Shown piece by piece: positions 21,929 through 42,280 of a DNA stretch of 64,000 nucleotides. Under the pieces are notes generated by a model, which was not told the DNA's origin, did not search any database, and worked only from the letters and a program-made list of their open reading frames with translations. The position numbers and the translations under genes were made by a program. Each line of letters begins with the position of its first letter. Within the stretch, counting starts at the first letter, position 1. The DNA lies in assembly GCA_035937595.1 (NCBI GenBank), contig DASZHS010000001.1, positions 1,800 to 65,799 on the forward strand. Direction: 5' to 3'. This DNA is from Acidimicrobiales bacterium. GTDB taxonomy: Bacteria > Actinomycetota > Acidimicrobiia > Acidimicrobiales > RAAP-2.

Positions 21929-23044
21929 ATGGTGCGTTCTGCAAGGGCGACGCGCGGGGCGACCGCGGCGGCGGACGAGGACATGGTCCAGCTGCTCGCA
22001 CCGAGCGGCGAGCGCGTCACGCACCCCGAGTACGACCTCGAGCCGAGCGACGACGAGGCGCGCGGGCTGTACCGCGACATGGTGATCATCCGTCGCTGCG
22101 ACGTCGAGATGACCGCGCTGCAGCGCCAGGGGCAGCTCGCGCTCTGGGCGCCGCTGCGCGGCCAGGAGGCCGCCCAGATCGGCGCGGGCCGCGCGCTCGC
22201 GCCCGACGACTTCTGCTTCCCCGGCTACCGCGAGCACGGCATCGCGTGGTGCCGCGGCATCACGCCCGAGCAGTCGGCCCGAAGCTTCCGCCAGGTCACG
22301 AACGGCGGGTGGGACCCCTACGAGCACAACTACGCCGAGCCGTCGATCGTGATCGGGAACAACGTGGTCAACGCCGTCGGCTACGCGATGGGCGTGCAGC
22401 ACGACGGGGCGGAGAGCGCGGTCATGGCGTGCACCGGCGACGGCGGGATGAGCGAGGGCGACGTCGCCGAGGCGTTCGTCTGGGCCGCGGTGTTCCAGGC
22501 ACCCATCGTCTTCCTGCTGCAGAACAACCAGTGGGCGATCTCCGAGCCCACCGAGCGCCAGAGCCGGATCCCGCTGTGCCGCCGGGCGGACGGGTTCGGG
22601 TTCCCCGGCGTGCGCGTCGACGGCAACGACGTCTTCGCGATGCTCGCGGTCACCCGCGCCGCCCTCGCCCGCGCGCGGGAGGGCTCGGGGCCGACGCTGC
22701 TCGAGGCGTTCACCTACCGCATGGGCGCGCACACGACCTCGGACGACCCGACGCGGTACCGCGTCGACACCGAGGTCGAGGACTGGCTGCAGCGCGACCC
22801 GGTCGAGCGGCTGCACCGCTACCTCGTCGCGGCGGGCGCCGCGGACGAGGCATGGACCGCGGAGATCGACGCGGAGGCCGACGGGATCGCGAGCCGGCTG
22901 CGCGACGCGGTCGTGGCGCTGCGCGGGCCGTCGCCGGCGTCGATCTTCGACCACGTCTACGCCGAGCCGCACCCCCTCGTCGACGAGGAGCGCGCGCAGA
23001 TGGTCGCCCTCTTGGGCGCCGAGGACGCAGGGAGTCTCAAGTGA
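21929..23044 (+). CDS. 2-oxoacid dehydrogenase E1 component alpha subunit (BCKDH/PDH type)
   Basis: 371 aa with SD GAGGAGG. It has a TPP motif region GDGGMSEGDV...LLQNNQWAIS. Confidence 0.9.
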   Translation: MVRSARATRGATAAADEDMVQLLAPSGERVTHPEYDLEPSDDEARGLYRDMVIIRRCDVEMTALQRQGQLALWAPLRGQEAAQIGAGRALAPDDFCFPGYREHGIAWCRGITPEQSARSFRQVTNGGWDPYEHNYAEPSIVIGNNVVNAVGYAMGVQHDGAESAVMACTGDGGMSEGDVAEAFVWAAVFQAPIVFLLQNNQWAISEPTERQSRIPLCRRADGFGFPGVRVDGNDVFAMLAVTRAALARAREGSGPTLLEAFTYRMGAHTTSDDPTRYRVDTEVEDWLQRDPVERLHRYLVAAGAADEAWTAEIDAEADGIASRLRDAVVALRGPSPASIFDHVYAEPHPLVDEERAQMVALLGAEDAGSLK

Positions 23045-24015
23045 CCGAGCTCACGCTGGCCAAGGCGATCAACGAGGGGCTCCGCAAGGCCATGGAGGAC
23101 AACCCGAAGGTCCTCCTCATGGGCGAGGACATCGGACGGCTCGGCGGGGTCTTCCGTGTCACCGACGGGCTGCAGAAGGACTTCGGCGAGCAGCGCGTCA
23201 TCGACTCGCCGCTCGGTGAGTCGGGGATCGTGGGCACCTCGGTCGGGCTCGCGATCCGCGGCTACCGCCCGGTGTCCGAGATCCAGTTCGACGGCTTCGT
23301 CTACCCGGCGTTCGACCAGCTCGTCTCCCAGGTCGCCAAGCAGCACGCGCGCTCCGAGGGCGCGATCACGCTGTCGCTGGTCGTGCGGATCCCCTACGGC
23401 GGGGGCATCGGGGCCGTCGAGCACCACTCCGAGAGCCCCGAGGCGTACTTCGCGCACACCGCGGGGCTGCGCGTCGTGTCCCCGTCGACGCCGAACGACG
23501 GGTTCTGGATGGTGCGCCAGGCGATCGAGTGCGACGACCCGGTCCTGTTCCTCGAGCCCAAGTGCCGCTACTGGGAGAAGGGCGAGGTCGACGAGGCCGC
23601 GCCGCCGTCCGGACTCTTCGAGGCGGCCGTGCGCCGCGTGGGCACCGACGCGACGCTCGTCGCCTACGGGCCGAGCGTGAAGACCTGCCTCAAGGCCGCC
23701 GAGGTGGCGCAGGGCGAGGGCCGGAGCCTCGAGGTCATCGACCTGCGCTCGATCTCGCCGCTCGATGCCGACACGGTCGCCCGCTCCGTCGAGAAGACGG
23801 GGCGGCTGCTCATCGCGCACGAGGCGCCGGTGTTCGGCGGCATGGGCGCCGAGATCGCCGCGCGGCTCACCGAGCGGTGCTTCTACTCGCTCAGCGCACC
23901 GCCGCTGCGCGTCGGCGGCTACCACACGCCGTACCCGCCGAGCCGCGTCGAGGAGGACTACCTCCCGAACATCGACCGGCTGCTCGACGCCCTCGACCGC
24001 GCCTTCGAGTTCTAG
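23041..24015 (+). CDS. 2-oxoacid dehydrogenase E1 component beta subunit
   Basis: GTG at 23041 overlaps the alpha-subunit stop. Sequence LAKAINEGLRKAMEDNPKVLLMGEDIG..GGVFRVT. Confidence 0.9.
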   Translation: MTELTLAKAINEGLRKAMEDNPKVLLMGEDIGRLGGVFRVTDGLQKDFGEQRVIDSPLGESGIVGTSVGLAIRGYRPVSEIQFDGFVYPAFDQLVSQVAKQHARSEGAITLSLVVRIPYGGGIGAVEHHSESPEAYFAHTAGLRVVSPSTPNDGFWMVRQAIECDDPVLFLEPKCRYWEKGEVDEAAPPSGLFEAAVRRVGTDATLVAYGPSVKTCLKAAEVAQGEGRSLEVIDLRSISPLDADTVARSVEKTGRLLIAHEAPVFGGMGAEIAARLTERCFYSLSAPPLRVGGYHTPYPPSRVEEDYLPNIDRLLDALDRAFEF

Positions 24016-24020
24016 CCCCG

Positions 24021-25355
24021 GTGGCCGAGCGCTCGTTCCCGCTGCCCGACGTGGGCGAGGGCCTCACCGAGGCCGAGATCGTCACCTGGAAGGTGGCCGT
24101 CGGCGACACCGTCACGATCAACCAGCCGCTCGTCGACATCGAGACGGCGAAGGCGACCGTCGAGCTGCCGAGCCCGTACGCGGGCCGGGTGGTCGCGCTG
24201 CTGGCCGCACCCGGCGACGTCGTCGACGTCGGGACCTCCATCATCACGATCGAGACCTCGGGCGACGAGAGCGCCGCGACGGCGGCGTCGGCGTCGTCGG
24301 CCGCGCCCGCCGAGCGCACGGCGGTCCTCGTCGGCTACGGCGTGGCGACCGAGGAGGCGCCCACGCGGCGGCACCGACGCGGCGCCGCCGCGCCGCCCCC
24401 GCCCGCCCCCGCCGCCCCAGCTTCGCGGGCGGTCCCCTCCGCGCCCGCGCTCGCGCCGCGCTCGACGCCGCCGGTGCGCAAGCTCGCGAAGTCCCTCCAC
24501 CTCGACCTCGCCGCCATCCGCGGCACGGGTCGCGACGGGCTCATCACCCGTGCGGACGTCGAGGCGGCGGCCTCGCCGACCACGGCCGTCGCGCGCGCGC
24601 CGTCGGGGCCGACCCGCTTCGCCGGCGTCGAGCTCGCCGGGTGGGACGAGGGGCCGCTCGAAGAGCGCATCCCGGTCCGCGGCGTGACGCGCGCGATGGC
24701 GGAGTCGATGAAGCTGAGCGCCTTCACCCAGCCCCAGGCCTCTGCGGCGCTGCAGGTCGACGCCACGCGGACGATGGACCTCGTCGACTCGCTGCGCGCC
24801 CGCCCCGCCCTCGCGGGGGTCAAGCTCTCGCCCCTCACGATCCTCGCACTGGGGGTCTGCCACGCCGCGAGGGCGAACCCCGGCATCAACAGCGCCTTCG
24901 ACGAGGCGGCCGGCGAGGTGGTCGTGCGCCGCCGCATCGCCCTGGGGATCGCCGCCGCCACGGACCGGGGGCTCATCGTCCCGAACATCAAGGGGGCCGA
25001 CCAGCTCGACCTCGTGGCCATGGCGAGGGCGCTCGACGCGCTCGTGGCGACGGCGAGGGCGGGGACGACGACGCCCGCCGACATGCTCGGCACGACGCTC
25101 ACCATCACGAACGTCGGCCCCTTCGGGATCGACGGCGCCGTCGCAATCCTCCCGCCGGGGACGTCGGCCATCGTCGCGGTCGGCCGGATCGCACCCAAGC
25201 CCTGGGTCGTCGACGGGGCGGTCGTGGCACGCCAGGTGGTCGAGCTCACGGTCACCTTCGACCACCGCCTGGTCGACGGCGCGCTCGCCTCCACGTTCCT
25301 GCGCGACGTGGGGCGCTTCGTCGAGGACCCGGCCGCGAGCCTCCTCGGCGGATGA
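24021..25355 (+). CDS. dihydrolipoamide acyltransferase E2 component
   Basis: Lipoyl domain DVGEGLTEAEIV.W.V..GD.V...Q.L..IETAKA, a Pro/Ala linker, a subunit-binding domain, and the catalytic ..DHRLVDGA. Confidence 0.9.
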   Translation: MAERSFPLPDVGEGLTEAEIVTWKVAVGDTVTINQPLVDIETAKATVELPSPYAGRVVALLAAPGDVVDVGTSIITIETSGDESAATAASASSAAPAERTAVLVGYGVATEEAPTRRHRRGAAAPPPPAPAAPASRAVPSAPALAPRSTPPVRKLAKSLHLDLAAIRGTGRDGLITRADVEAAASPTTAVARAPSGPTRFAGVELAGWDEGPLEERIPVRGVTRAMAESMKLSAFTQPQASAALQVDATRTMDLVDSLRARPALAGVKLSPLTILALGVCHAARANPGINSAFDEAAGEVVVRRRIALGIAAATDRGLIVPNIKGADQLDLVAMARALDALVATARAGTTTPADMLGTTLTITNVGPFGIDGAVAILPPGTSAIVAVGRIAPKPWVVDGAVVARQVVELTVTFDHRLVDGALASTFLRDVGRFVEDPAASLLGG

Positions 25356-26191
25356 CCGGCGACGCCGCCCTCGAGCTCGTCGACCTCGACCGGTACCCGA
25401 TCGACGCGCCCGCGTCGCCCGGGCACGACGCGGCCGTCGGCGCGGCACGCGCCGAGCTCGCGGACCGCGGCGCCGCGGAGCTCGCGGGCTTCGTCACCCC
25501 CGACGGCGTCGCGGCGCTGCAGCGCGACGCCGAGGCGCTGGCGGTGCGGTCGTTCCACTCCGACGGCGTCGGCACGGCGTACCTCGAGCTGCCAGAGGAC
25601 CGGTGGGCACCCGAGCATCCCCGCCAGACCTGGGCGCCCTACGCCGTCGGCGCCGTCGGCTACGACGTGATCCCGCGCGCCTCGCCCCTGCGCCGCCTCT
25701 ATGAGTCCGCCCTGCTGCTCGCCTTCCTCGAGGCCGTCCTCGACCGCGGACGCCTGCACCGCTACGCGGACCCCTGCGGCGCGCTCAACCTCGCCGTCAT
25801 GGGGAAGGGCGACGAGCTGCAGTGGCACTTCGACCAGACCGACTTCGTGGTCTCCCTGGCCATCCAGGCGGCCGAGCACGGTGGCGACTTCGACGTCGCC
25901 CCGAGGATCCGCAGCGCCGGCGACGAGCGCTACGACGACGTCGGCCGCGTGCTCAAGGGCGACCGCTCGCGCGTCGTCACCCTGCCGATGACCCCGGGCA
26001 CGCTCCTCGTCTTCGAGGGCCGCCACTCGCTGCACCGCGTGAGCCCGATCGAGGGCGACGCGCTGCGCCACGTCGGCCTGCTCGCCTACGACACCTCGCC
26101 CGGCACGGTCTCGTCGGACCTCCTGCGCGAGGTCCGCTACGGGCGCACGACGCCGTTCGCCGACCCGCCCGACGCGTGGCCGCCTTCGTAA
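25352..26191 (+). CDS. Fe(II)/2-oxoglutarate-dependent oxygenase (substrate unknown)
   Basis: ATG at 25352 overlaps the E2 stop (ATGA). The triad is H-x-D in WHFDQTD plus a distal His in GRHSLHRVSP, with an Arg 11 residues later. That makes it hydroxylase-type (HxD), not halogenase-type (HxG). Confidence 0.75.
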   Translation: MTGDAALELVDLDRYPIDAPASPGHDAAVGAARAELADRGAAELAGFVTPDGVAALQRDAEALAVRSFHSDGVGTAYLELPEDRWAPEHPRQTWAPYAVGAVGYDVIPRASPLRRLYESALLLAFLEAVLDRGRLHRYADPCGALNLAVMGKGDELQWHFDQTDFVVSLAIQAAEHGGDFDVAPRIRSAGDERYDDVGRVLKGDRSRVVTLPMTPGTLLVFEGRHSLHRVSPIEGDALRHVGLLAYDTSPGTVSSDLLREVRYGRTTPFADPPDAWPPS

Positions 26192-26694
26192 CCCAGCTCG
26201 GCGAGGCGTTCTGCGGGGCCGGCCCCGAGGCCGCGCACGTGAACACCGTGCTCGGCGCCAAGGGCGGCCCGGTCGAGGCCGCGTGGGTGACGGCCCTCGC
26301 CACCCCCCGCAAGGGGCACGTGGCCTTCGTCGTCGCGGCCCAGCCCTCGCTCGCGGTCAAGCCGATGACGCTGTTCGTGAACAAGGCGACGATCGCGACC
26401 GACGACCACGCCGCCCTCACCTGGGGCCCCGCCCAGGCCGGCGTCGCCTCCGGCGTGCTCGACGCCGTCGCCGACGGCACGGTCCCGGCCGCGCTCGCCG
26501 ACGAGCTCGTGCTGATCGTGGCGGTGTGGCTGAGCGCCGAGGCGCGCGACGCCGACGCCGTCTACGGGTGCAACCGCGAGGCGACCCACGCCTCGCTGCG
26601 CGCCGGCGCGCTCGGCCACCCGACGCCCGGCGACGTGCTCGCCGTGCGCGAGGACCCGTACAACGCCTACTGGCTGCCGCCCTCGATGCGCTGA
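26176..26694 (+). CDS. formaldehyde-activating enzyme (Fae) family protein
   Basis: It is collinear over about 160 aa with the Methylobacterium Fae sequence as I remember it: [20 protein letters not shown] / [32 protein letters not shown] / [34 protein letters not shown] / [22 protein letters not shown]. The start is uncertain. The in-frame GTG at 26176 overlaps the upstream gene by 16 nt. Confidence 0.8.
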   Translation: [172 protein letters not shown]

Positions 26695-26728: not shown

Positions 26729-27550
26729 TCACCCGGTGGCGGGCGGGCGCTCGATCTGGAGCTGGACCTCGCGCTCCTCGAACCCCACCGCGCGGTACAG
26801 CTCGATCGCCACGTAGCCGGGGTCCGCGACCATCACGAGCGTCCGCGCGCCGAGCGTGTCGAACCCAAAGCGGCCGGCGTGGTGGACGAGCGTCCCCGCG
26901 AACCCCTGGCGTCGAAGGCCCGGGTCGGTGTGCACCGTCTGGAACCGCGCGAGCCCCGGTCCTGCGGTGACGAGGCCCATCTGACAGACGAGACGGCCGT
27001 CGGCGAAGGCACCGAACCAGGCCCCGTGCCCGGCCTCGACGAGCCGCCGGTTCGTGACGGCCTTGGCGGCCGCGAACGCGCGGAACCCCGCCCGGTCGAG
27101 CTCCTGGCCGATCGAGCGCACCTCGAGGTCCACGCTCTGGACCCAGTCCTCGTCCGTGCGGAGCGTGCGGCACTCGGCGTCGGGGTTCGGGTGGCGCGGC
27201 TCGTGGACGATGGACGTGGTCATTACGGCCTGGGCGTCCGCGGTGAAGCCCCGAGCGGCGAACCACGCGAGGTCGTCCAGCGCGCCGTGCGTGCCGTCGA
27301 AGCCGAGCGCCACGTGCCGCGCGTCAGGGAAGGTCGCGGCGAAGCGGTCGAGCCACCCTGGCGACGACGCCGGCGTCGGGACGTCGTGCAGGAGCAGGAA
27401 GTTGCCCCACCAGTGGGAGGGGTTGTGCGAGCTGCGGACGACGAGGTGGTCCCCACGCTCCTCGATCGTCGTGCCGCCGAGCCTGAGGAGCGAGAGATCG
27501 GTGCGGAACCCGAGGGAGGCGACGTCCACGCCCCGCACCGTAGGCAGCAT
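26729..27550 (-). CDS. GNAT family N-acetyltransferase
   Basis: ATG at 27550. The C-terminal acetyl-CoA motif is V.TDPGLRRQGFAGTLV. Confidence 0.75.
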   Translation of the reverse strand: MLPTVRGVDVASLGFRTDLSLLRLGGTTIEERGDHLVVRSSHNPSHWWGNFLLLHDVPTPASSPGWLDRFAATFPDARHVALGFDGTHGALDDLAWFAARGFTADAQAVMTTSIVHEPRHPNPDAECRTLRTDEDWVQSVDLEVRSIGQELDRAGFRAFAAAKAVTNRRLVEAGHGAWFGAFADGRLVCQMGLVTAGPGLARFQTVHTDPGLRRQGFAGTLVHHAGRFGFDTLGARTLVMVADPGYVAIELYRAVGFEEREVQLQIERPPATG

Positions 27551-27588
27551 CGGGCCGGCCGTCGCCCCGGACGACGACGGTGCCCCGG

Positions 27589-28059
27589 TCAGCTCGCCGG
27601 TGTCGACTCCGCGGCGGCCTTCAGCCGCTCGAGCGTCTGGGTCATCGTCTCGCTGTTGTGGGTCTCGCGGTCCTCGATGCCGGTGCCGAGCTTGCCGAAG
27701 AACTTGGCGACCGAGCCCCGCTGGTCGACCGTGGACTCCGTCACCCGACAGCCGGACGGGATCGGCTCGAGCTCGTAGCGCCACTCGGCCACCTTGAAGG
27801 GCCCCACGTTGATGAGGAAGGCGAGCGCCTTGTCCGGCGTCGCCTCGGTGATCCTCCCGTGGGTCGTCCAGGTCTTCGAGCCGTGCCGGTTCGCCCCCTT
27901 GAACGTGACGCCCACCGCCGGCCCCGACGCCCCCTTCAGCCACTCGACGCCCTCGTTCTCGGGCGACCACCTGCCCATCTGCGTGAGATCCGCCACGAGC
28001 CCCCAGACCTTCTCGGGGGGCGCGGCGATCTCCGTCGTCACCTGCACGCGCGCTGCCAT
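27589..28059 (-). CDS. SRPBCC (polyketide cyclase/dehydrase-like) family protein
   Basis: 156 aa. The N-terminus ...I.APPEKVWGLVADLTQMGRWSPE is typical of the family. Confidence 0.8.
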   Translation of the reverse strand: MAARVQVTTEIAAPPEKVWGLVADLTQMGRWSPENEGVEWLKGASGPAVGVTFKGANRHGSKTWTTHGRITEATPDKALAFLINVGPFKVAEWRYELEPIPSGCRVTESTVDQRGSVAKFFGKLGTGIEDRETHNSETMTQTLERLKAAAESTPAS

Positions 28060-28127
28060 GCCGCGACGGTAGCCGCGACGGCGAAGTCGGGCACGACGCG
28101 GGCTGGTCCTGGTGGTCGAGCCGCCCG

Positions 28128-28742
28128 CTACCCCGTGCCGAGCGCGACGTCGTCACCGCGCACGAGACGGATGAGCTCGCCGTAGCCGCCGCGGGCGTCG
28201 GCCGGGACGCGCCACACGTCGACCGTCGCGAAGACGCCGAGCGTGCGGATCCGGATCGCCGGCGCGCCCTGGCGTGCGCGGTCGGACCCCCACTCGCGGC
28301 GGTGCCCGAAGATCGCGAGCCCGCCGACGGCGACGTCGACGCCCTCGGGCACGTAGACGTCGACGTTGCCGAAGAGGGCGAGCACGTTGACGCGCGTGGT
28401 CGGTGCGTCGATCTGCGCCTCGCGCAGGTCGAGGTCGAGGTCCGAGAAGGCGGCGGCGGCGACCGTCGAGCCCTTGAGGCGGAGCCGCCCGCGCCGCACG
28501 ACGTGGGCGAACAGCGCCACGGTCGCGCGCGTGGGCCGACGCCGCGGGAGCGCCGCCGGCGCCGTCGGGACCGGGAGGTCGGACTGGATCGCGGCGAGCT
28601 CGCCGTGCACCCGCGCGCGGTAGGCCTGCTCGACGCGCTCGGTGAACTCCTCGAGGTTCAGCCGCCCGTCGAGCAGGTGCTCACGGAGCGCGACGACCGC
28701 CTGCTCGCGCTCGGCGTCCGAGGCCCGAAGCTCGGGATCCAC
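28128..28742 (-). CDS. DUF1707 domain protein with LiaF-like C-terminal domain
   Basis: The N-terminus LRASDAEREQAVVALREHLLDGRLNLEEFTERV is the DUF1707 motif. Confidence 0.8.
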   Translation of the reverse strand: MDPELRASDAEREQAVVALREHLLDGRLNLEEFTERVEQAYRARVHGELAAIQSDLPVPTAPAALPRRRPTRATVALFAHVVRRGRLRLKGSTVAAAAFSDLDLDLREAQIDAPTTRVNVLALFGNVDVYVPEGVDVAVGGLAIFGHRREWGSDRARQGAPAIRIRTLGVFATVDVWRVPADARGGYGELIRLVRGDDVALGTG

Positions 28743-38646: not shown

Positions 38647-40695
38647 GTGACGGCCACCCGCCTCGTCGTCGGCCTCGGGGTCACCGCGGTGTGCTTCGCC
38701 GTGGCCGGGCTCCGGTTCTGGTGGCTGCGCCGGCTCATCGGGACCGGCGTCCCCGCACCGGGCCGCTGGAAGGGCTTCCGTCCGCGCGCTGAGGCCGAGC
38801 TCGTCGAGGTCGCGGGGCAGCGCAAGCTGCTGCGCTGGACGGTGCCGGGGCTCGCGCACTTCTTCACGATGTGGGGCTTCACGATCCTGTTGCTCACGAT
38901 CATCGAGGCGTACGGGGCGCTCTTCAGCCGCAGCTTCCACATCTGGTTCATCGGAACCGACGCCTGGGTCGGGTTCCTCGAGGACTTCTTCACGGTCGCC
39001 GTCCTCGTCAGCCTCTGCGTCTTCGCCGTGATCCGCGTCGTCAACTCGCCGGCGCGCAAGGAGCGCTCGAGCCGGTTCTACGGCTCGCACACCGGGGCGG
39101 CGTGGCTGGTCCTCGCCTACATCGCCGCGGTGATGGTCACGCTCCTGCTCTACCGTGCCGCGCAGGTCAACACGGGCTACTTCCCCTACGGCACGTCCAC
39201 CTGGGCGTTCGCGAGCCACACCGTCGCGAGCTGGCTCGCCCCCCTCGGGACGTCGGCCAACAGCGCCATCGAGACGACGTTCCTCCTGCTCAACATCGCG
39301 GTCATCGCCTCGTTCCTCGTCTTCGTCTCGTACTCGAAGCACCTGCACATCTTCATCGCGCCGATCAACGTTGCGTCGTCGCGGCGGCCCCGCGCGCTCG
39401 GGGCGCTCGACAAGACGCCCGACATGGACATGGAGCACGTGAGCGAGGACACCGTGTTCGGCGTCGGGCACGTCGGCGAGTTCACCTGGAAGCAGATGCT
39501 CGACTTCGCCACCTGCACCGAGTGCGGACGGTGCCAGTCGCAGTGCCCGGCGTGGAACACGGGCAAGCCGCTCAGCCCGAAGCTCGTGATCATGGACCTT
39601 CGCGACACCCTCTTCGCGTCGGCGGACCGTCTGCTCGCCGGGGCGCCGAACGACGGCGACACGCTCGTGCCCTCGGTCATCGACCCCGACGTGCTGTGGA
39701 GCTGCACGACGTGCGGGGCTTGCGTCGAGGAGTGCCCCGTCGACATCGAGCACGTCGACGCCATCATCGACATGCGTCGCTACGAGGTGCTCATGGAGTC
39801 GCGGTTCCCCACCGAGGCGGGGTTGCTCCTCCGCAACCTCGAGAACCAGGGGGACCCGTGGGGGCTGGGGGCGGCAAAGCGCACCGACTGGCTGGCCGAG
39901 CTCGACTTCGAGGTGCCCGTGGTCAACGACGTGATCCCCGAGGACGTCGAGTACCTCTACTGGGTGGGCTGCGCGGGGTCCCTCGACGAGCGCGGTCGCA
40001 AGCAGGTGGTCTCGACGGCGCGGATGCTGCACCGCGCCGGCGTCCGCTTCGCGATCCTCGGGCCGAAGGAGTCGTGCACGGGCGACCCGGCGCGCCGGAT
40101 GGGCAACGAGTACCTCTACCAAGAGCTCGCCAAGGCGAACATCGAGACGCTGCACGCGGCGGGCGCGCGAAAGATCGTCGTCACCTGTCCGCACTGCTTC
40201 AACTCGATCCGCAACGAGTACCCCGCGCTCGGTGGGGAGTTCGAGGTCGTCCACCACGCCCAGCTGCTCGACACCCTGGTCCGCGACCACCGCCTCACGC
40301 CCGGGACCGGGTACCAGGGGACCGTCACCTACCACGACCCGTGCTACCTCGGCCGCCACAACCGCGTGTTCGACGAGCCGCGCGGCGTGCTCGACGCGAT
40401 CCCCGGCGTGCGGACTGTCGAGATGGGGCGCTGCCGCGAGAAGGGGTTCTGCTGCGGCGCGGGTGGCGCGAGGATGTGGATGGAAGAGACGATCGGCACG
40501 CGTGTCAACCGGAACCGCACCGAGGAGGCCCTCGCGACGGGCGCCGACGTCGTGTCCACGGCGTGCCCCTACTGCATGATCATGCTCGACGACGCCGTGA
40601 AGGCCGAGGGCCGCGGCGACGACGTCCGGGTCCTCGACATCTCCCAGGTCCTGGAGGCCTCGCTCGCCGTGCAGCCCACCCCACCGTCTGGGTGA
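38647..40695 (+). CDS. membrane-anchored (Fe-S)-binding reductase, HdrD/GlpC-like (Mtb Rv0338c-type)
   Basis: 682 aa with an N-terminal multi-TM domain. Two ferredoxin motifs are present: [12 protein letters not shown] and [12 protein letters not shown]. Two CCG-type Cys-rich domains are present: ..GCAGS..CPHCFNS.. and ..[21 protein letters not shown]. Confidence 0.85.
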
Positions 40696-40717
40696 CGCCG
40701 CACAACTTCACGCCCTC

Positions 40718-40757
40718 GTAACGCATCGCTAACGGCGTCGAAACACACACCGGTCAC
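40718..40757 (+). promoter_or_regulatory. candidate GlnR-box array upstream of amt
   Basis: GTAAC-n6-CTAAC-n6-GAAAC-n8-GTCAC. This resembles the actinobacterial GlnR a/b-site pattern gTnAc-n6-GaAAc. The array ends 41 nt upstream of the amt start. Confidence 0.4.
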
Positions 40758-40798
40758 ACTCACCGCCAGGCAGAACCGCCGCCGCGGAGGAGGACCCA

Positions 40799-42280
40799 GT
40801 GCACCTCATTGCGATCGGGCCCTACCCGAGCTGGCTCAACCCCGGCGACAACGCATGGCAGCTCGTCGCCGCGACGCTCGTCGGGCTGATGAGCCTGCCG
40901 GCGCTCGCCGTGCTCTACGGCGGACTCGTCCAACGGCGCTGGATCGTGAACACGATGCTCATGGCGTTCGTCGGGTTCTCGGCCGTCCTCGTCGTCTGGG
41001 TGCTGTGGGGCTACAACCTCGCGTTCGGCCCGCTCTCGCACTTCGGGGCGACGGGCTCGTTCCTGTCGGGGTTCGTCGGCAAGTTCTGGCCGATGGCGAG
41101 CCACTTCGGCGAGCAGAACCAGGCCGTCTCCGGCGCCCTTCCCTCCGGGCTGCACTTCCACTTCCCGACGGCCACGTTCGCGTACTTCCAGGTCGTCTTC
41201 GCCGCGATCACGCCGCTGCTCTTCCTGGGCGCGGTCGTCGGGCGCATCAAGTTCCGGGCCTGGCTCTTCTTCGTGCCGCTCTGGATCACGTTCGTGTACT
41301 GCATCAACGCGGCGCTGCTGTGGGGTGGCGGCTTCCTCGCCCAGAAGGGCGCCGTCGACTACTCGGGCGGCTACGTCATCCACCTCTCCGCTGGCGTCGC
41401 GGGCTTCGTCGCCGCCTGGGTCGTCGGGCCGCGGCTGCGGCGCGACCGCGACCACGGGGTCCCGAACAACCTGATGATGGTGGCGCTCGGCGCAGGGATC
41501 CTGTGGCTCGGCTGGAACGGGTTCAACGGCGGGGACCCCTTCTATGCGGGCGTGGACGCGGCGTCGGCCGTGCTCAACACGAACCTCGCGACCGCGACGG
41601 CGGTGCTCACCTGGGTCGTGTTCGACATCTGCTTCAGCAGGGCGCGCAAGCCGACGTTCCTTGGAGCGATCAACGGCATGATCTGCGGCCTGGTGGGGAT
41701 CACCCCCTCGGCCGGCTGGGTGAACGGCTTTGGGGCGATCATGGTCGGGCTGATCTGTTCCTCGCTCGTCTGGGTGTCGTGGAACTACCTGAGCCGGGTG
41801 CGCCCGTTCTCCAAGGTCGACGACGCGCTCGGCGTCGTGTACACCCATGGCATCGCGGGCCTCGTGGGCGGCCTCCTCGTCGGCGTGCTCGCGGACCCCG
41901 GGATGATCGAGTACGTGAGCGGCACCAAGCACCCCGGCGGCCCGGGGTCCTTCGGCGTCAGCGGTTTCCTCTACTCGCACAGCTTCCACCAGCTCTGGGA
42001 GCAGTTCCTCGCGGCGTCGTGGATCATCGTGTTCACCGCCGTGGCGACGTTCCTCATCCTGCGGGTCGTGAAGGTCCTGGCGCGGGGGCTGCGCGAGCCC
42101 GACGAGGTCCTGCTGGTCGGGGACCTCGCGATCCACGACGAAGAAGCGCTCCCGCGCGAGACGTTCGCAGAGCGGGTCGACGCGCTTGCCCGGCACTCCA
42201 ACGGCAACGGCAACGGCCACGGCAACGGCGAGGGCAACGGCCACGGAGCGGTGATCGAGAAGGTGAAGGAGCCCGCATGA
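40799..42280 (+). CDS. amt: ammonium transporter
   Basis: 493 aa with a GTG start and SD GGAGGAGGA. Amt motifs are ..GAVDYSGGYVIHLSAG.. and ..LGWNGFNGG... The C-terminal tail is NGNGNGHGNGEGNGHG. Confidence 0.93.
   Translation: MHLIAIGPYPSWLNPGDNAWQLVAATLVGLMSLPALAVLYGGLVQRRWIVNTMLMAFVGFSAVLVVWVLWGYNLAFGPLSHFGATGSFLSGFVGKFWPMASHFGEQNQAVSGALPSGLHFHFPTATFAYFQVVFAAITPLLFLGAVVGRIKFRAWLFFVPLWITFVYCINAALLWGGGFLAQKGAVDYSGGYVIHLSAGVAGFVAAWVVGPRLRRDRDHGVPNNLMMVALGAGILWLGWNGFNGGDPFYAGVDAASAVLNTNLATATAVLTWVVFDICFSRARKPTFLGAINGMICGLVGITPSAGWVNGFGAIMVGLICSSLVWVSWNYLSRVRPFSKVDDALGVVYTHGIAGLVGGLLVGVLADPGMIEYVSGTKHPGGPGSFGVSGFLYSHSFHQLWEQFLAASWIIVFTAVATFLILRVVKVLARGLREPDEVLLVGDLAIHDEEALPRETFAERVDALARHSNGNGNGHGNGEGNGHGAVIEKVKEPA

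What the first reader, a model, noticed from the sequence alone, without database searches (positions are those of the whole stretch)
26176..26694. Formaldehyde-activating enzyme (Fae) homologue with no H4MPT pathway genes nearby
The roughly 172-aa product aligns without gaps to the Fae core as I remember it (GEA..G.G.E.AH...., KP.TL...K.TI, GPAQ.GVA..V.DAVA.G..P). Fae is characteristic of tetrahydromethanopterin-dependent C1 metabolism in methylotrophic Proteobacteria, Planctomycetes and methanogens. It is not a standard component of mycothiol-using, high-GC Gram-positive formaldehyde detoxification. No mtdB, mch, fhc or H4MPT-biosynthesis genes lie in this 64-kb window. Three explanations are possible: the organism carries an unexpected H4MPT-linked pathway elsewhere, this Fae paralogue uses another nucleophile (for example tetrahydrofolate or a thiol), or it was acquired horizontally.
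Basis: partly seen in the sequence, partly recalled or inferred. Interest (0 to 1): 0.6.

Follow-up and report, generated by a model that had tools for sequence, protein, structure and literature searches.

The report
Orphan Fae paired with 2OG hydroxylase
A soil actinobacterium (class Acidimicrobiia) that lacks the tetrahydromethanopterin cofactor pathway still carries a real formaldehyde-activating-enzyme gene, always paired with an uncharacterised iron/2-oxoglutarate hydroxylase, which points to an undescribed use of this enzyme family.

Summary
Window 26176-26694 (+) encodes a 172-aa Fae-family protein: Pfam Fae 162.6 bits; TIGR03126 137.7 bits against a cut-off of 118; gapless 39% identity to M. 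extorquens Fae.

The genome is 94% complete and has no Mch, Ftr/FhcD, FhcA/B, MtdB or RFAP synthase. Neither Mch nor RFAP synthase was found in 50 other genomes that carry close homologues. The "pathway elsewhere" reading is therefore rejected.

Recent horizontal transfer is unlikely. GC3 matches the neighbours, and 5 of 6 genomes of the same family carry the gene.

The protein lies outside the canonical Fae clade. It keeps His22 and Gln88, but conserved residues differ (D24N, F38W, F84W, F119W and others).

The new result is the partner gene. The Fae start overlaps by 16 nt the stop of a 279-aa BesD/HalD-fold Fe/2OG oxygenase with an HxD motif, which marks a hydroxylase. In 201 Acidimicrobiia genomes, 27 have Fae. 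All 27 have the oxygenase orthologue; none of the 174 Fae-negative genomes does. The genes are adjacent in 17 genomes and unlinked in 10.

Best reading (inferred, about 45%): the hydroxylase releases formaldehyde from an amino-acid-like substrate, and the Fae-like enzyme traps it on tetrahydrofolate. No biochemistry exists. This is a new variant of a known kind, of moderately high interest.

The parts
26176..26694 (+). Fae-family protein, 172 aa, of the non-canonical ('orphan', H4MPT-independent) clade. The GTG start lies 16 nt inside the upstream gene.
   Evidence: Pfam and NCBIfam hits; 1Y5Y alignment; tree placement outside the canonical clade; residue comparison.
25352..26191 (+). BesD/HalD-fold Fe(II)/2-oxoglutarate oxygenase, 279 aa. 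H159-x-D161...H228 facial triad, so a hydroxylase rather than a halogenase. The ATG overlaps the E2 stop (ATGA).
   Evidence: PF23169 at 45.2 bits against a cut-off of 26. AF2 model with pLDDT 89.8. Foldseek best hits HalB/HalA/BesD/HalD and the BesD hydroxylase homologue 7jsd, TM 0.6-0.76. Invariant residues in alignment A1. All homologues are named 'hypothetical protein'.
24021..25355 (+). 2-oxoacid dehydrogenase E2 (lipoyl, E3-binding and acyltransferase domains), directly upstream in the same operon.
   Evidence: Pfam 2-oxoacid_dh and E3_binding; Biotin_lipoyl in the L002 orthologue; start mapped; exact metatranscriptome contigs span 25201-25410.
23041..24015 (+). 2-oxoacid dehydrogenase E1 beta subunit. 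Its GTG overlaps the E1 alpha stop (GTGA).
   Evidence: Transket_pyr and Transketolase_C; coordinates.
21929..23044 (+). 2-oxoacid dehydrogenase E1 alpha subunit, first gene of the five-gene same-strand array.
   Evidence: Pfam E1_dh, 227 bits.

Best explanation
Shown: the gene encodes a genuine Fae-fold protein from a clade that works without tetrahydromethanopterin. In Acidimicrobiia it forms a conserved two-gene module with a BesD/HalD-fold Fe(II)/2OG hydroxylase. Here that module is the tail of a five-gene operon behind a branched-chain-type 2-oxoacid dehydrogenase (E1 alpha, E1 beta, E2).

Inferred mechanism: the hydroxylase oxidises a methyl or methylene carbon next to a heteroatom on a small, amino-acid-like substrate. 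An N-methyl group giving a carbinolamine is one case; a C-methyl group giving a hydroxymethyl group that leaves by retro-aldol cleavage is another. Either route releases formaldehyde. The Fae-like enzyme uses its retained acid catalyst (His22 equivalent) and pterin-binding Gln (Gln88 equivalent) to condense that formaldehyde with the only reduced pterin C1 carrier the genome is equipped for, tetrahydrofolate. This gives 5,10-methylene-H4F, which FolD and folate metabolism then use. The module would therefore detoxify formaldehyde and salvage the C1 unit at its source.

The substrate of the hydroxylase and the acceptor of the Fae-like enzyme are both inferred, not shown.
For: Family membership.

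No H4MPT pathway or biosynthesis:
- Mch 0/1, Ftr 0/1 and RFAP synthase 0/1 in the own genome.
- tblastn with FhcA/B/D, MtdB and DUF1464 from a canonical cluster finds nothing except Fae itself and one weak GXGXG hit.
- Mch 0/50 and RFAP synthase 0/51 over the cut-off in other carriers. These include cultured Actinomadura, Actinoallomurus, Sphaerisporangium and Amycolatopsis. The archaeal controls ring.

Distinct clade: the canonical clade (1Y5Y plus sequences of Fae-Hps length) is separated by SH-aLRT 99 and a stem of 0.93. A canonical-clade member lies in an fhcA-fhcD-fhcC / fae / mtdB cluster, which serves as a positive control.

Residues: His and Gln are invariant in both clades. Conserved switches are D24N, F38W, L52F, V72A, F84W, A94G, F119W and I120V. 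The canonical-only residues E19, N59, H121, Y135 and R144 are lost.

Coupling to the oxygenase:
- 16-nt overlap here, and mostly 4-nt or 16-nt overlaps in 33 of 66 loci, across different surrounding contexts.
- In 201 genomes of the class, 27 are Fae+. All 27 carry the oxygenase orthologue, and 0 of 174 Fae- genomes do (Fisher p=4e-34, not corrected for phylogeny).
- The genes are adjacent in 17 genomes and unlinked in 10.

Other support: the oxygenase has the BesD-family fold with HxD. FolD is present. Non-coupled homologues in other actinomycetes sit beside betaine-type ABC transporters, a DAO-family FAD oxidoreductase, ALDH and Fe-ADH genes, a setting of methylated-amine and aldehyde catabolism.
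Against: - No biochemical data exist for any member of this clade or of the oxygenase family.
- No characterised BesD/HalD-family enzyme is a demethylase. The known members hydroxylate or halogenate unactivated C-H bonds of free Lys/Orn.
- Formaldehyde condenses with H4F spontaneously (PMC8879981), so the need for an enzyme is not obvious.
- From my recollection of Vorholt et al. 2000 (not checked here), canonical Fae is inactive with H4F.
- The recurring neighbours (2-oxoacid dehydrogenase, acyl-CoA dehydrogenases, SDR, amidohydrolase_2) suggest acyl/branched-chain catabolism rather than an obvious methylated substrate.
- The roles of the switched residues in cofactor binding could not be checked against the 1Y60 structure paper, which is not held.
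Confidence: 0.45

Rival explanations
1. The Fae-fold protein acts on the hydroxylase's product, but not on formaldehyde or a pterin. It would use the retained acid catalyst to make or break a C-N bond (aminal, hemiaminal or imine) on another aldehyde or amine intermediate. An example is cyclisation or deamination of a hydroxylated amino acid on its way into the 2-oxoacid dehydrogenase / acyl-CoA route.
For: Many conserved residues are changed, including three Phe-to-Trp switches and the loss of H121, Y135 and R144. The BesD family acts on C-H bonds of free amino acids. Neighbours are a 2-oxoacid dehydrogenase, acyl-CoA dehydrogenases, SDR, ALDH and HIBADH.
Against: Gln88, which reorients when the pterin binds in canonical Fae (recalled from the abstract of Acharya et al. 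2005), is invariant, as are His22 and the GPAQ.GVA motif. The protein still scores above the equivalog-domain cut-off of TIGR03126. No precedent is known for a Fae-fold enzyme with a non-C1 substrate.
Confidence: 0.3
2. A general formaldehyde-detoxification enzyme that uses a thiol such as mycothiol, or no cofactor. Its position next to the oxygenase would be conserved gene order without a functional link.
For: Actinobacteria are known for mycothiol-dependent formaldehyde oxidation (PMC8879981). The contexts around the pair vary.
Against: Co-occurrence is strict (27/27 against 0/174) and persists in 10 genomes where the two genes are unlinked. Start/stop overlaps indicate co-translation. The Fae fold has a pterin site and no known thiol site. 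The known thiol-dependent Gfa is an unrelated fold, and the protein gives no such Pfam hit.
Confidence: 0.1
3. An ordinary H4MPT-dependent Fae whose pathway partners were missed (6% of the genome is unassembled), or a recently transferred relic from a methylotroph.
For: It passes the TIGR03126 equivalog-domain cut-off. The genome is 94% complete, not closed.
Against: Five independent pathway or biosynthesis markers are absent here. Mch and RFAP synthase are absent in all 50 other carriers, several of them closed or isolate genomes. The protein falls outside the canonical clade. Its composition matches the host, and it is conserved across 19 genera of the class.
Confidence: 0.03

Closest known systems
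Fae, formaldehyde-activating enzyme of Methylorubrum (Methylobacterium) extorquens AM1 (EC 4.2.1.147; PDB 1Y5Y/1Y60)
   Same: Same single-domain family. 39% identity with no gaps over 153 residues. Catalytic His22 and pterin-contacting Gln88 are conserved, as are the GPAQ.GVA and KP.T motifs.
   Different: The organism has no H4MPT pathway or biosynthesis. The protein lies outside the canonical clade. Conserved switches are D24N, F38W, L52F, F84W, F119W and others, and H121, Y135 and R144 are lost. It is coupled to an Fe/2OG hydroxylase instead of fhc/mtd/mch genes.
Fae2 / Fae3 paralogues of proteobacterial methylotrophs (e.g. Methyloversatilis universalis FAM5)
   Same: Fae-family proteins of unknown function that are not the canonical enzyme. 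Fae3 has been suggested to shuttle C1 units between H4F and H4MPT (PMC5023235).
   Different: Those paralogues occur in organisms that possess H4MPT and a canonical Fae1, whereas this protein is the only Fae in an H4MPT-free genome.
BesD / HalA / HalB / HalD radical amino-acid halogenases and their hydroxylase homologue (PDB 6NIE, 7U6J, 7U6H, 7JSD)
   Same: Best structural matches of the upstream oxygenase (TM 0.6-0.76), and the same Pfam family PF23169.
   Different: Only 15-18% identity. It has HxD rather than HxG/A, so it should hydroxylate rather than halogenate. It is 279 aa with its own conserved motifs. It is chromosomal and widespread in Acidimicrobiia rather than located in natural-product clusters. 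Its substrate is unknown.
Oxidative demethylases with built-in folate capture (sarcosine/dimethylglycine oxidases and dehydrogenases), and the 2-aminoisobutyrate hydroxylase plus alpha-methylserine hydroxymethyltransferase route (both from my own knowledge)
   Same: The same logic as proposed here: an oxidase or hydroxylase creates a formaldehyde-level carbon, which is passed directly to tetrahydrofolate.
   Different: Those systems use GcvT-fold or SHMT-fold folate domains, not a Fae fold, and flavin or di-iron oxidases, not a BesD-type 2OG enzyme.

Membership tests
Fae (PF08714 / TIGR03126, EC 4.2.1.147) | Significant match to the family models above the curated cut-offs | tested here: met
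   PF08714 162.6 bits (cut-off 27). TIGR03126 137.7 bits (cut-off 118.05).
Fae (PF08714 / TIGR03126, EC 4.2.1.147) | Proposed acid catalyst His22 and pterin-contacting Gln88 present | tested here: met
   H21 and Q87 in chain numbering (+1 in the paper's numbering) are invariant in the orphan group and in the window protein.
Fae (PF08714 / TIGR03126, EC 4.2.1.147) | Organism possesses H4MPT-linked C1 enzymes (Mch, Mtd, Fhc/Ftr) | tested here: not met
   Mch 0 hits. Ftr 0 hits. tblastn with FhcA/B/D, MtdB and DUF1464 gave no hits. Mch 0/50 in other carriers.
Fae (PF08714 / TIGR03126, EC 4.2.1.147) | Organism can make H4MPT (RFAP synthase MptG) | tested here: not met
   TIGR00144: 0 of 51 genomes over the cut-off, including the own genome; the controls ring in 4 archaea.
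Fae (PF08714 / TIGR03126, EC 4.2.1.147) | Falls in the clade of biochemically characterised Fae | tested here: not met
   The canonical clade of 33 rows (1Y5Y plus sequences of Fae-Hps length) has SH-aLRT 99 and excludes all actinobacterial, Chloroflexota and Binatia loci.
Fae (PF08714 / TIGR03126, EC 4.2.1.147) | Accelerates condensation of formaldehyde with H4MPT | not testable with these tools
   Needs an enzyme assay.
Fae-Hps bifunctional enzyme (NF009833) | Fae domain fused to 3-hexulose-6-phosphate synthase | tested here: not met
   Single-domain protein of 172 aa. NF009833 scores 96 bits against a cut-off of 274, matching the Fae part only.
BesD/HalD Fe(II)/2OG amino-acid halogenase/hydroxylase family (PF23169), for the upstream gene | Family model match and fold | tested here: met
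   PF23169 45.2 bits against a cut-off of 26. Foldseek top 40 hits are all BesD-family structures, E down to 3e-13.
BesD/HalD Fe(II)/2OG amino-acid halogenase/hydroxylase family (PF23169), for the upstream gene | Halogenase signature: the carboxylate ligand of the facial triad replaced by Gly/Ala (HxG/A) | tested here: not met
   H159-F-D161 is invariant in 25 orthologues, which predicts a hydroxylase.
BesD/HalD Fe(II)/2OG amino-acid halogenase/hydroxylase family (PF23169), for the upstream gene | Acts on free L-lysine or L-ornithine | not testable with these tools
   Sequence identity of 15-18% is too low to map substrate-binding residues.

The most novel reading that the evidence does not exclude
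This clade is the first enzyme family that activates formaldehyde onto tetrahydrofolate (or another carrier that is not H4MPT). It works as an obligate partner of a BesD-fold 2OG hydroxylase acting as a previously unknown small-molecule demethylase or hydroxymethyl-releasing enzyme. That would define a new formaldehyde-channelling module that is widespread in soil and freshwater Acidimicrobiia.
Probability: 0.3. Interest if true: 0.8.

Novelty: new variant of a known kind. Interest (0 to 1): 0.62.

Why it matters
Fae (KEGG K10713, EC 4.2.1.147) is routinely used in metagenome surveys as a marker of H4MPT-linked methylotrophy. This work shows that a large clade cannot mean that. The clade comprises more than 4,000 clusters at 90% identity and is present in about 13% of sampled Acidimicrobiia, as well as in Streptosporangiales, Amycolatopsis, Gaiellales, Chloroflexota and Binatia. 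All tested carriers lack Mch and RFAP synthase.

The strict pairing with an uncharacterised hydroxylase gives a concrete and cheap experimental route to two unknown enzyme functions. It may also bear on an old question: does any enzyme catalyse the reaction of formaldehyde with tetrahydrofolate, which is assumed to be spontaneous?

Tried and rejected
- A 371-aa database protein with both HalD and Fae domains (P0177) looked like a Rosetta-stone fusion. Its sequence shows out-of-frame stretches at the junction and at the C-terminus, so I treat it as an assembly frameshift, not as evidence.
- The Fae structure paper (Acharya et al. 2005) is not held, and the review PMC8879981 gives no residue detail. 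Assigning the switched residues to the cofactor pocket therefore rests on memory and is marked as such.
- Profile search of the oxygenase against PDB sequences reached only the C-terminal 60 residues of WelO5-type halogenases. Substrate-binding residues could not be mapped.
- Metatranscriptome contigs (runs X11 and X12) match exactly across the E2-to-oxygenase junction, but coverage over the Fae gene is weak and ambiguous. Co-transcription of Fae itself is not shown.
As a result, Mch over the whole class sample and the Pfam Mpt_N model in the own genome were not run. MtdB was instead tested by tblastn with a canonical-cluster protein.
- Two further canonical or intermediate representatives (P0266, P0341) and P0377 lie on contigs too short to show context.
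- A link to the respiratory genes qcrABC/ctaCDE that flank the pair in many Acidimicrobiaceae was considered. I rejected it as lineage synteny, because the pair occurs in at least three unrelated contexts.

Full report
**1. The observation**

Window 26176-26694 (+) is an open frame of 172 codons with a GTG start.
- It matches Pfam Fae (PF08714) at E=9.6e-48, 162.6 bits, over profile positions 2-152 of 159.
- It matches NCBIfam TIGR03126 at 137.7 bits, above the curated cut-off of 118.05.
- It aligns without a single gap to residues 6-158 of M. extorquens Fae (1Y5Y; E=4.6e-28; 59 of 153 identical, 39%).

It is the only Fae-family gene in the genome. That genome is 2.44 Mb in 72 contigs and is estimated 94% complete.

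**2. No H4MPT pathway anywhere**

In the organism's own genome, Mch (PF02289), Ftr/FhcD (PF01913) and RFAP synthase (TIGR00144, the committed step of methanopterin biosynthesis) give no hit. The same searches ring in the archaeal control genomes.

I also took FhcA, FhcB-like, FhcC, FhcD, MtdB and DUF1464 proteins from a canonical bacterial H4MPT cluster (locus L080) and ran tblastn against the genome. Only the Fae gene itself answered (38% identity), plus one weak GXGXG-domain hit.

A scan of one genome per species found 66 loci with 45-80% identical Fae proteins. The carriers were:
- Acidimicrobiia and Gaiellales metagenome-assembled genomes (MAGs);
- cultured Actinomadura alba, Actinoallomurus vinaceus, Sphaerisporangium perillae and three Amycolatopsis;
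- Chloroflexota and Binatia MAGs.

Of 50 of these genomes, none has Mch. Of 51, including the own genome, none has RFAP synthase above the cut-off.

**3. A distinct clade with changed conserved residues**

I built a maximum-likelihood tree of 111 Fae-family sequences: the loci, representatives from 50%-identity clusters, and 1Y5Y.
- The M. extorquens enzyme groups with sequences of Fae-Hps fusion length in a 33-row clade with SH-aLRT 99 and a stem of 0.93 substitutions per site.
- Every actinobacterial, Chloroflexota and Binatia locus, including the window, lies outside it.
- As a positive control, a member of the canonical clade (P0286) sits in an fhcA-fhcD-fhcC / fae / mtdB(Mpt_N) cluster.

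A column-by-column comparison (numbering as in the structure paper, which is chain index +1) gives three results:
- The proposed acid catalyst His22 and the pterin-contacting Gln88 are invariant in both groups. Their roles are recalled from the abstract of Acharya et al. 2005, which is not held here.
- Eight positions conserved in both groups carry different residues: D24N, F38W, L52F, V72A, F84W, A94G, F119W and I120V.
- Five residues conserved only in canonical Fae (E19, N59, H121, Y135, R144) are not kept.

The catalytic core is kept, and many residues that are conserved in canonical Fae are changed. I expect these to line the ligand pocket, but I could not check that. This pattern is what a change of acceptor would produce, though it does not prove one.

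**4. The partner gene, the main new result**

The Fae start lies 16 nt inside the preceding gene, 25352-26191. That gene's ATG in turn overlaps the stop of a 2-oxoacid dehydrogenase E2 (ATGA). E2 follows E1 beta after 5 nt, and E1 beta overlaps E1 alpha (GTGA). This is five same-strand genes with no room for a promoter between them. Exact metatranscriptome contigs from soil span the E2-to-oxygenase junction.

The 279-aa product matches Pfam HalD (PF23169, 45.2 bits). An AlphaFold model (pLDDT 89.8) is closest to the radical amino-acid halogenases HalB, HalA, BesD and HalD and to their lysine hydroxylase homologue 7JSD (TM 0.6-0.76, 15-18% identity). The metal-binding motif is H159-x-D161...H228, invariant in 25 orthologues. 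The enzyme should therefore hydroxylate, not halogenate. Every database homologue is labelled 'hypothetical protein'.

Evidence for the link between the two genes:
- The oxygenase gene lies directly upstream of Fae in 33 of the 66 loci, mostly with 4-nt or 16-nt overlaps.
- This holds in at least three unrelated surroundings: behind the 2-oxoacid dehydrogenase, as here; between qcrABC and ctaCDE; and between amidohydrolase_2, Zn-ADH and acyl-CoA dehydrogenase genes.
- In an even sample of 201 genomes of the class, 27 carry Fae (19 of 103 genera; 5 of 6 genomes in the own family).
- All 27 carry a high-scoring orthologue of the oxygenase (at least 280 bits, or truncated at a contig end).
- None of the 174 Fae-negative genomes does. 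Eleven of them have only weaker paralogues, at 145-220 bits.
- Fisher p=4e-34, uncorrected for phylogeny.
- The two genes are adjacent in 17 genomes and on different contigs or 276 kb apart in 10.

Co-occurrence that survives the loss of linkage is strong evidence that the two proteins work together.

**5. Other contexts of the clade**

In Streptosporangiales and Amycolatopsis there is no oxygenase. There the Fae homologue heads an operon with an MR/MLE enolase-superfamily enzyme, an aldehyde dehydrogenase, a HIBADH-type reductase and an Fe-alcohol dehydrogenase. That operon is preceded either by an OpuAC (betaine/choline-type) ABC transporter, or by a DAO-family FAD oxidoreductase with a urocanase.

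Where the genes are unlinked in Acidimicrobiia, Fae sits next to an acyl-CoA dehydrogenase, an SDR and a luciferase-like monooxygenase.

The common themes are catabolism of small nitrogenous or quaternary compounds and aldehyde handling. No H4MPT gene appears in any of these contexts.

**6. Horizontal transfer**

GC and GC3 of the Fae gene (0.76, 0.99) and of the oxygenase gene (0.75, 0.97) match the neighbouring E2 (0.77, 0.96). The gene follows family-level relationships in the tree. There is no sign of recent acquisition from a methylotroph. Ancient transfers among Actinomycetota, Chloroflexota and Binatia are likely, given the mixed clades.

**7. Interpretation**

Shown: the gene is a real Fae-family member, independent of H4MPT, in its own clade, and functionally tied to a BesD-fold hydroxylase.

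Inferred (about 45%): the hydroxylase generates formaldehyde from an amino-acid-like substrate, either by N-methyl hydroxylation or by C-hydroxymethyl formation followed by retro-aldol release. The Fae-like protein then condenses that formaldehyde with tetrahydrofolate. FolD is present.

Points against this reading:
- No BesD-family demethylase is known.
- Formaldehyde reacts with H4F spontaneously (PMC8879981).
- The neighbours are acyl-catabolic rather than obviously linked to a methylated substrate.

The main rival (about 30%) is that the Fae fold has been recruited to a different aldehyde/amine chemistry on the hydroxylated product.

**8. Literature**

Full-text searches found no description of Fae in Acidimicrobiia, of an orphan actinobacterial Fae clade, or of an Fae/2OG-oxygenase pair. 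Fae2 and Fae3 of methylotrophs remain without a known function, and they occur alongside H4MPT (PMC5023235). Earlier notes of this scan describe the same five-gene array and similar orphan or oxygenase-coupled Fae genes in other genomes. I used them as leads only.

**9. Limits**

The tree is a quick search with SH-aLRT support only. No experiment exists for any member of either family.

Noticed in passing
window 21929-25355 (+): A complete E1 alpha / E1 beta / E2 2-oxoacid dehydrogenase set (branched-chain or acetoin type) runs directly into the oxygenase-Fae pair, with overlapping stops and starts (GTGA, 5-nt gap, ATGA). The same arrangement is seen in relatives L002, L006, L008 and L014. It may hint at the carbon skeleton processed by the pair.
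   Followed up: partly
L017 2542-11179; also L025, L031, L046 (Actinomadura, Actinoallomurus, Sphaerisporangium): A conserved operon: OpuAC-type betaine/choline ABC transporter, Fae homologue, MR/MLE enolase-superfamily enzyme, aldehyde dehydrogenase, HIBADH-type reductase, Fe-alcohol dehydrogenase, with a divergent IclR regulator. It occurs in cultured strains that lack Mch and RFAP synthase, which makes it a tractable system for the function of orphan Fae.
   Followed up: partly
G053:C1:1686377-1687171 and G142:C8:21991-22785: Two of the unlinked oxygenase orthologues are reported with one in-frame stop each (TAA, TGA). This could mean decay, recoding or sequencing error.
   Followed up: no
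protein P0177: A database protein annotated with both HalD and Fae domains is an artefact of frameshifts in a metagenome contig, not a natural fusion.
   Followed up: yes
G064, G074, G093, G101, G113, G117, G129, G149, G181, G217, G241: Eleven Fae-negative Acidimicrobiia carry a more distant paralogue of the oxygenase (145-220 bits). This is a second subfamily of BesD-fold hydroxylases that works without Fae.
   Followed up: no
window 26729-28742 (-): Downstream, on the opposite strand, lie a GNAT acetyltransferase-domain protein, an SRPBCC/polyketide-cyclase-like protein and a DUF1707/LiaF-C protein. The SRPBCC gene and an AhpC/TSA gene are also conserved beside the pair in L002 and L003.
   Followed up: no
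window 38647-42280 (+): A 682-aa protein with two CCG cysteine-rich domains and 4Fe-4S dicluster domains (HdrD/GlpC-like) is followed by an ammonium transporter.
   Followed up: no
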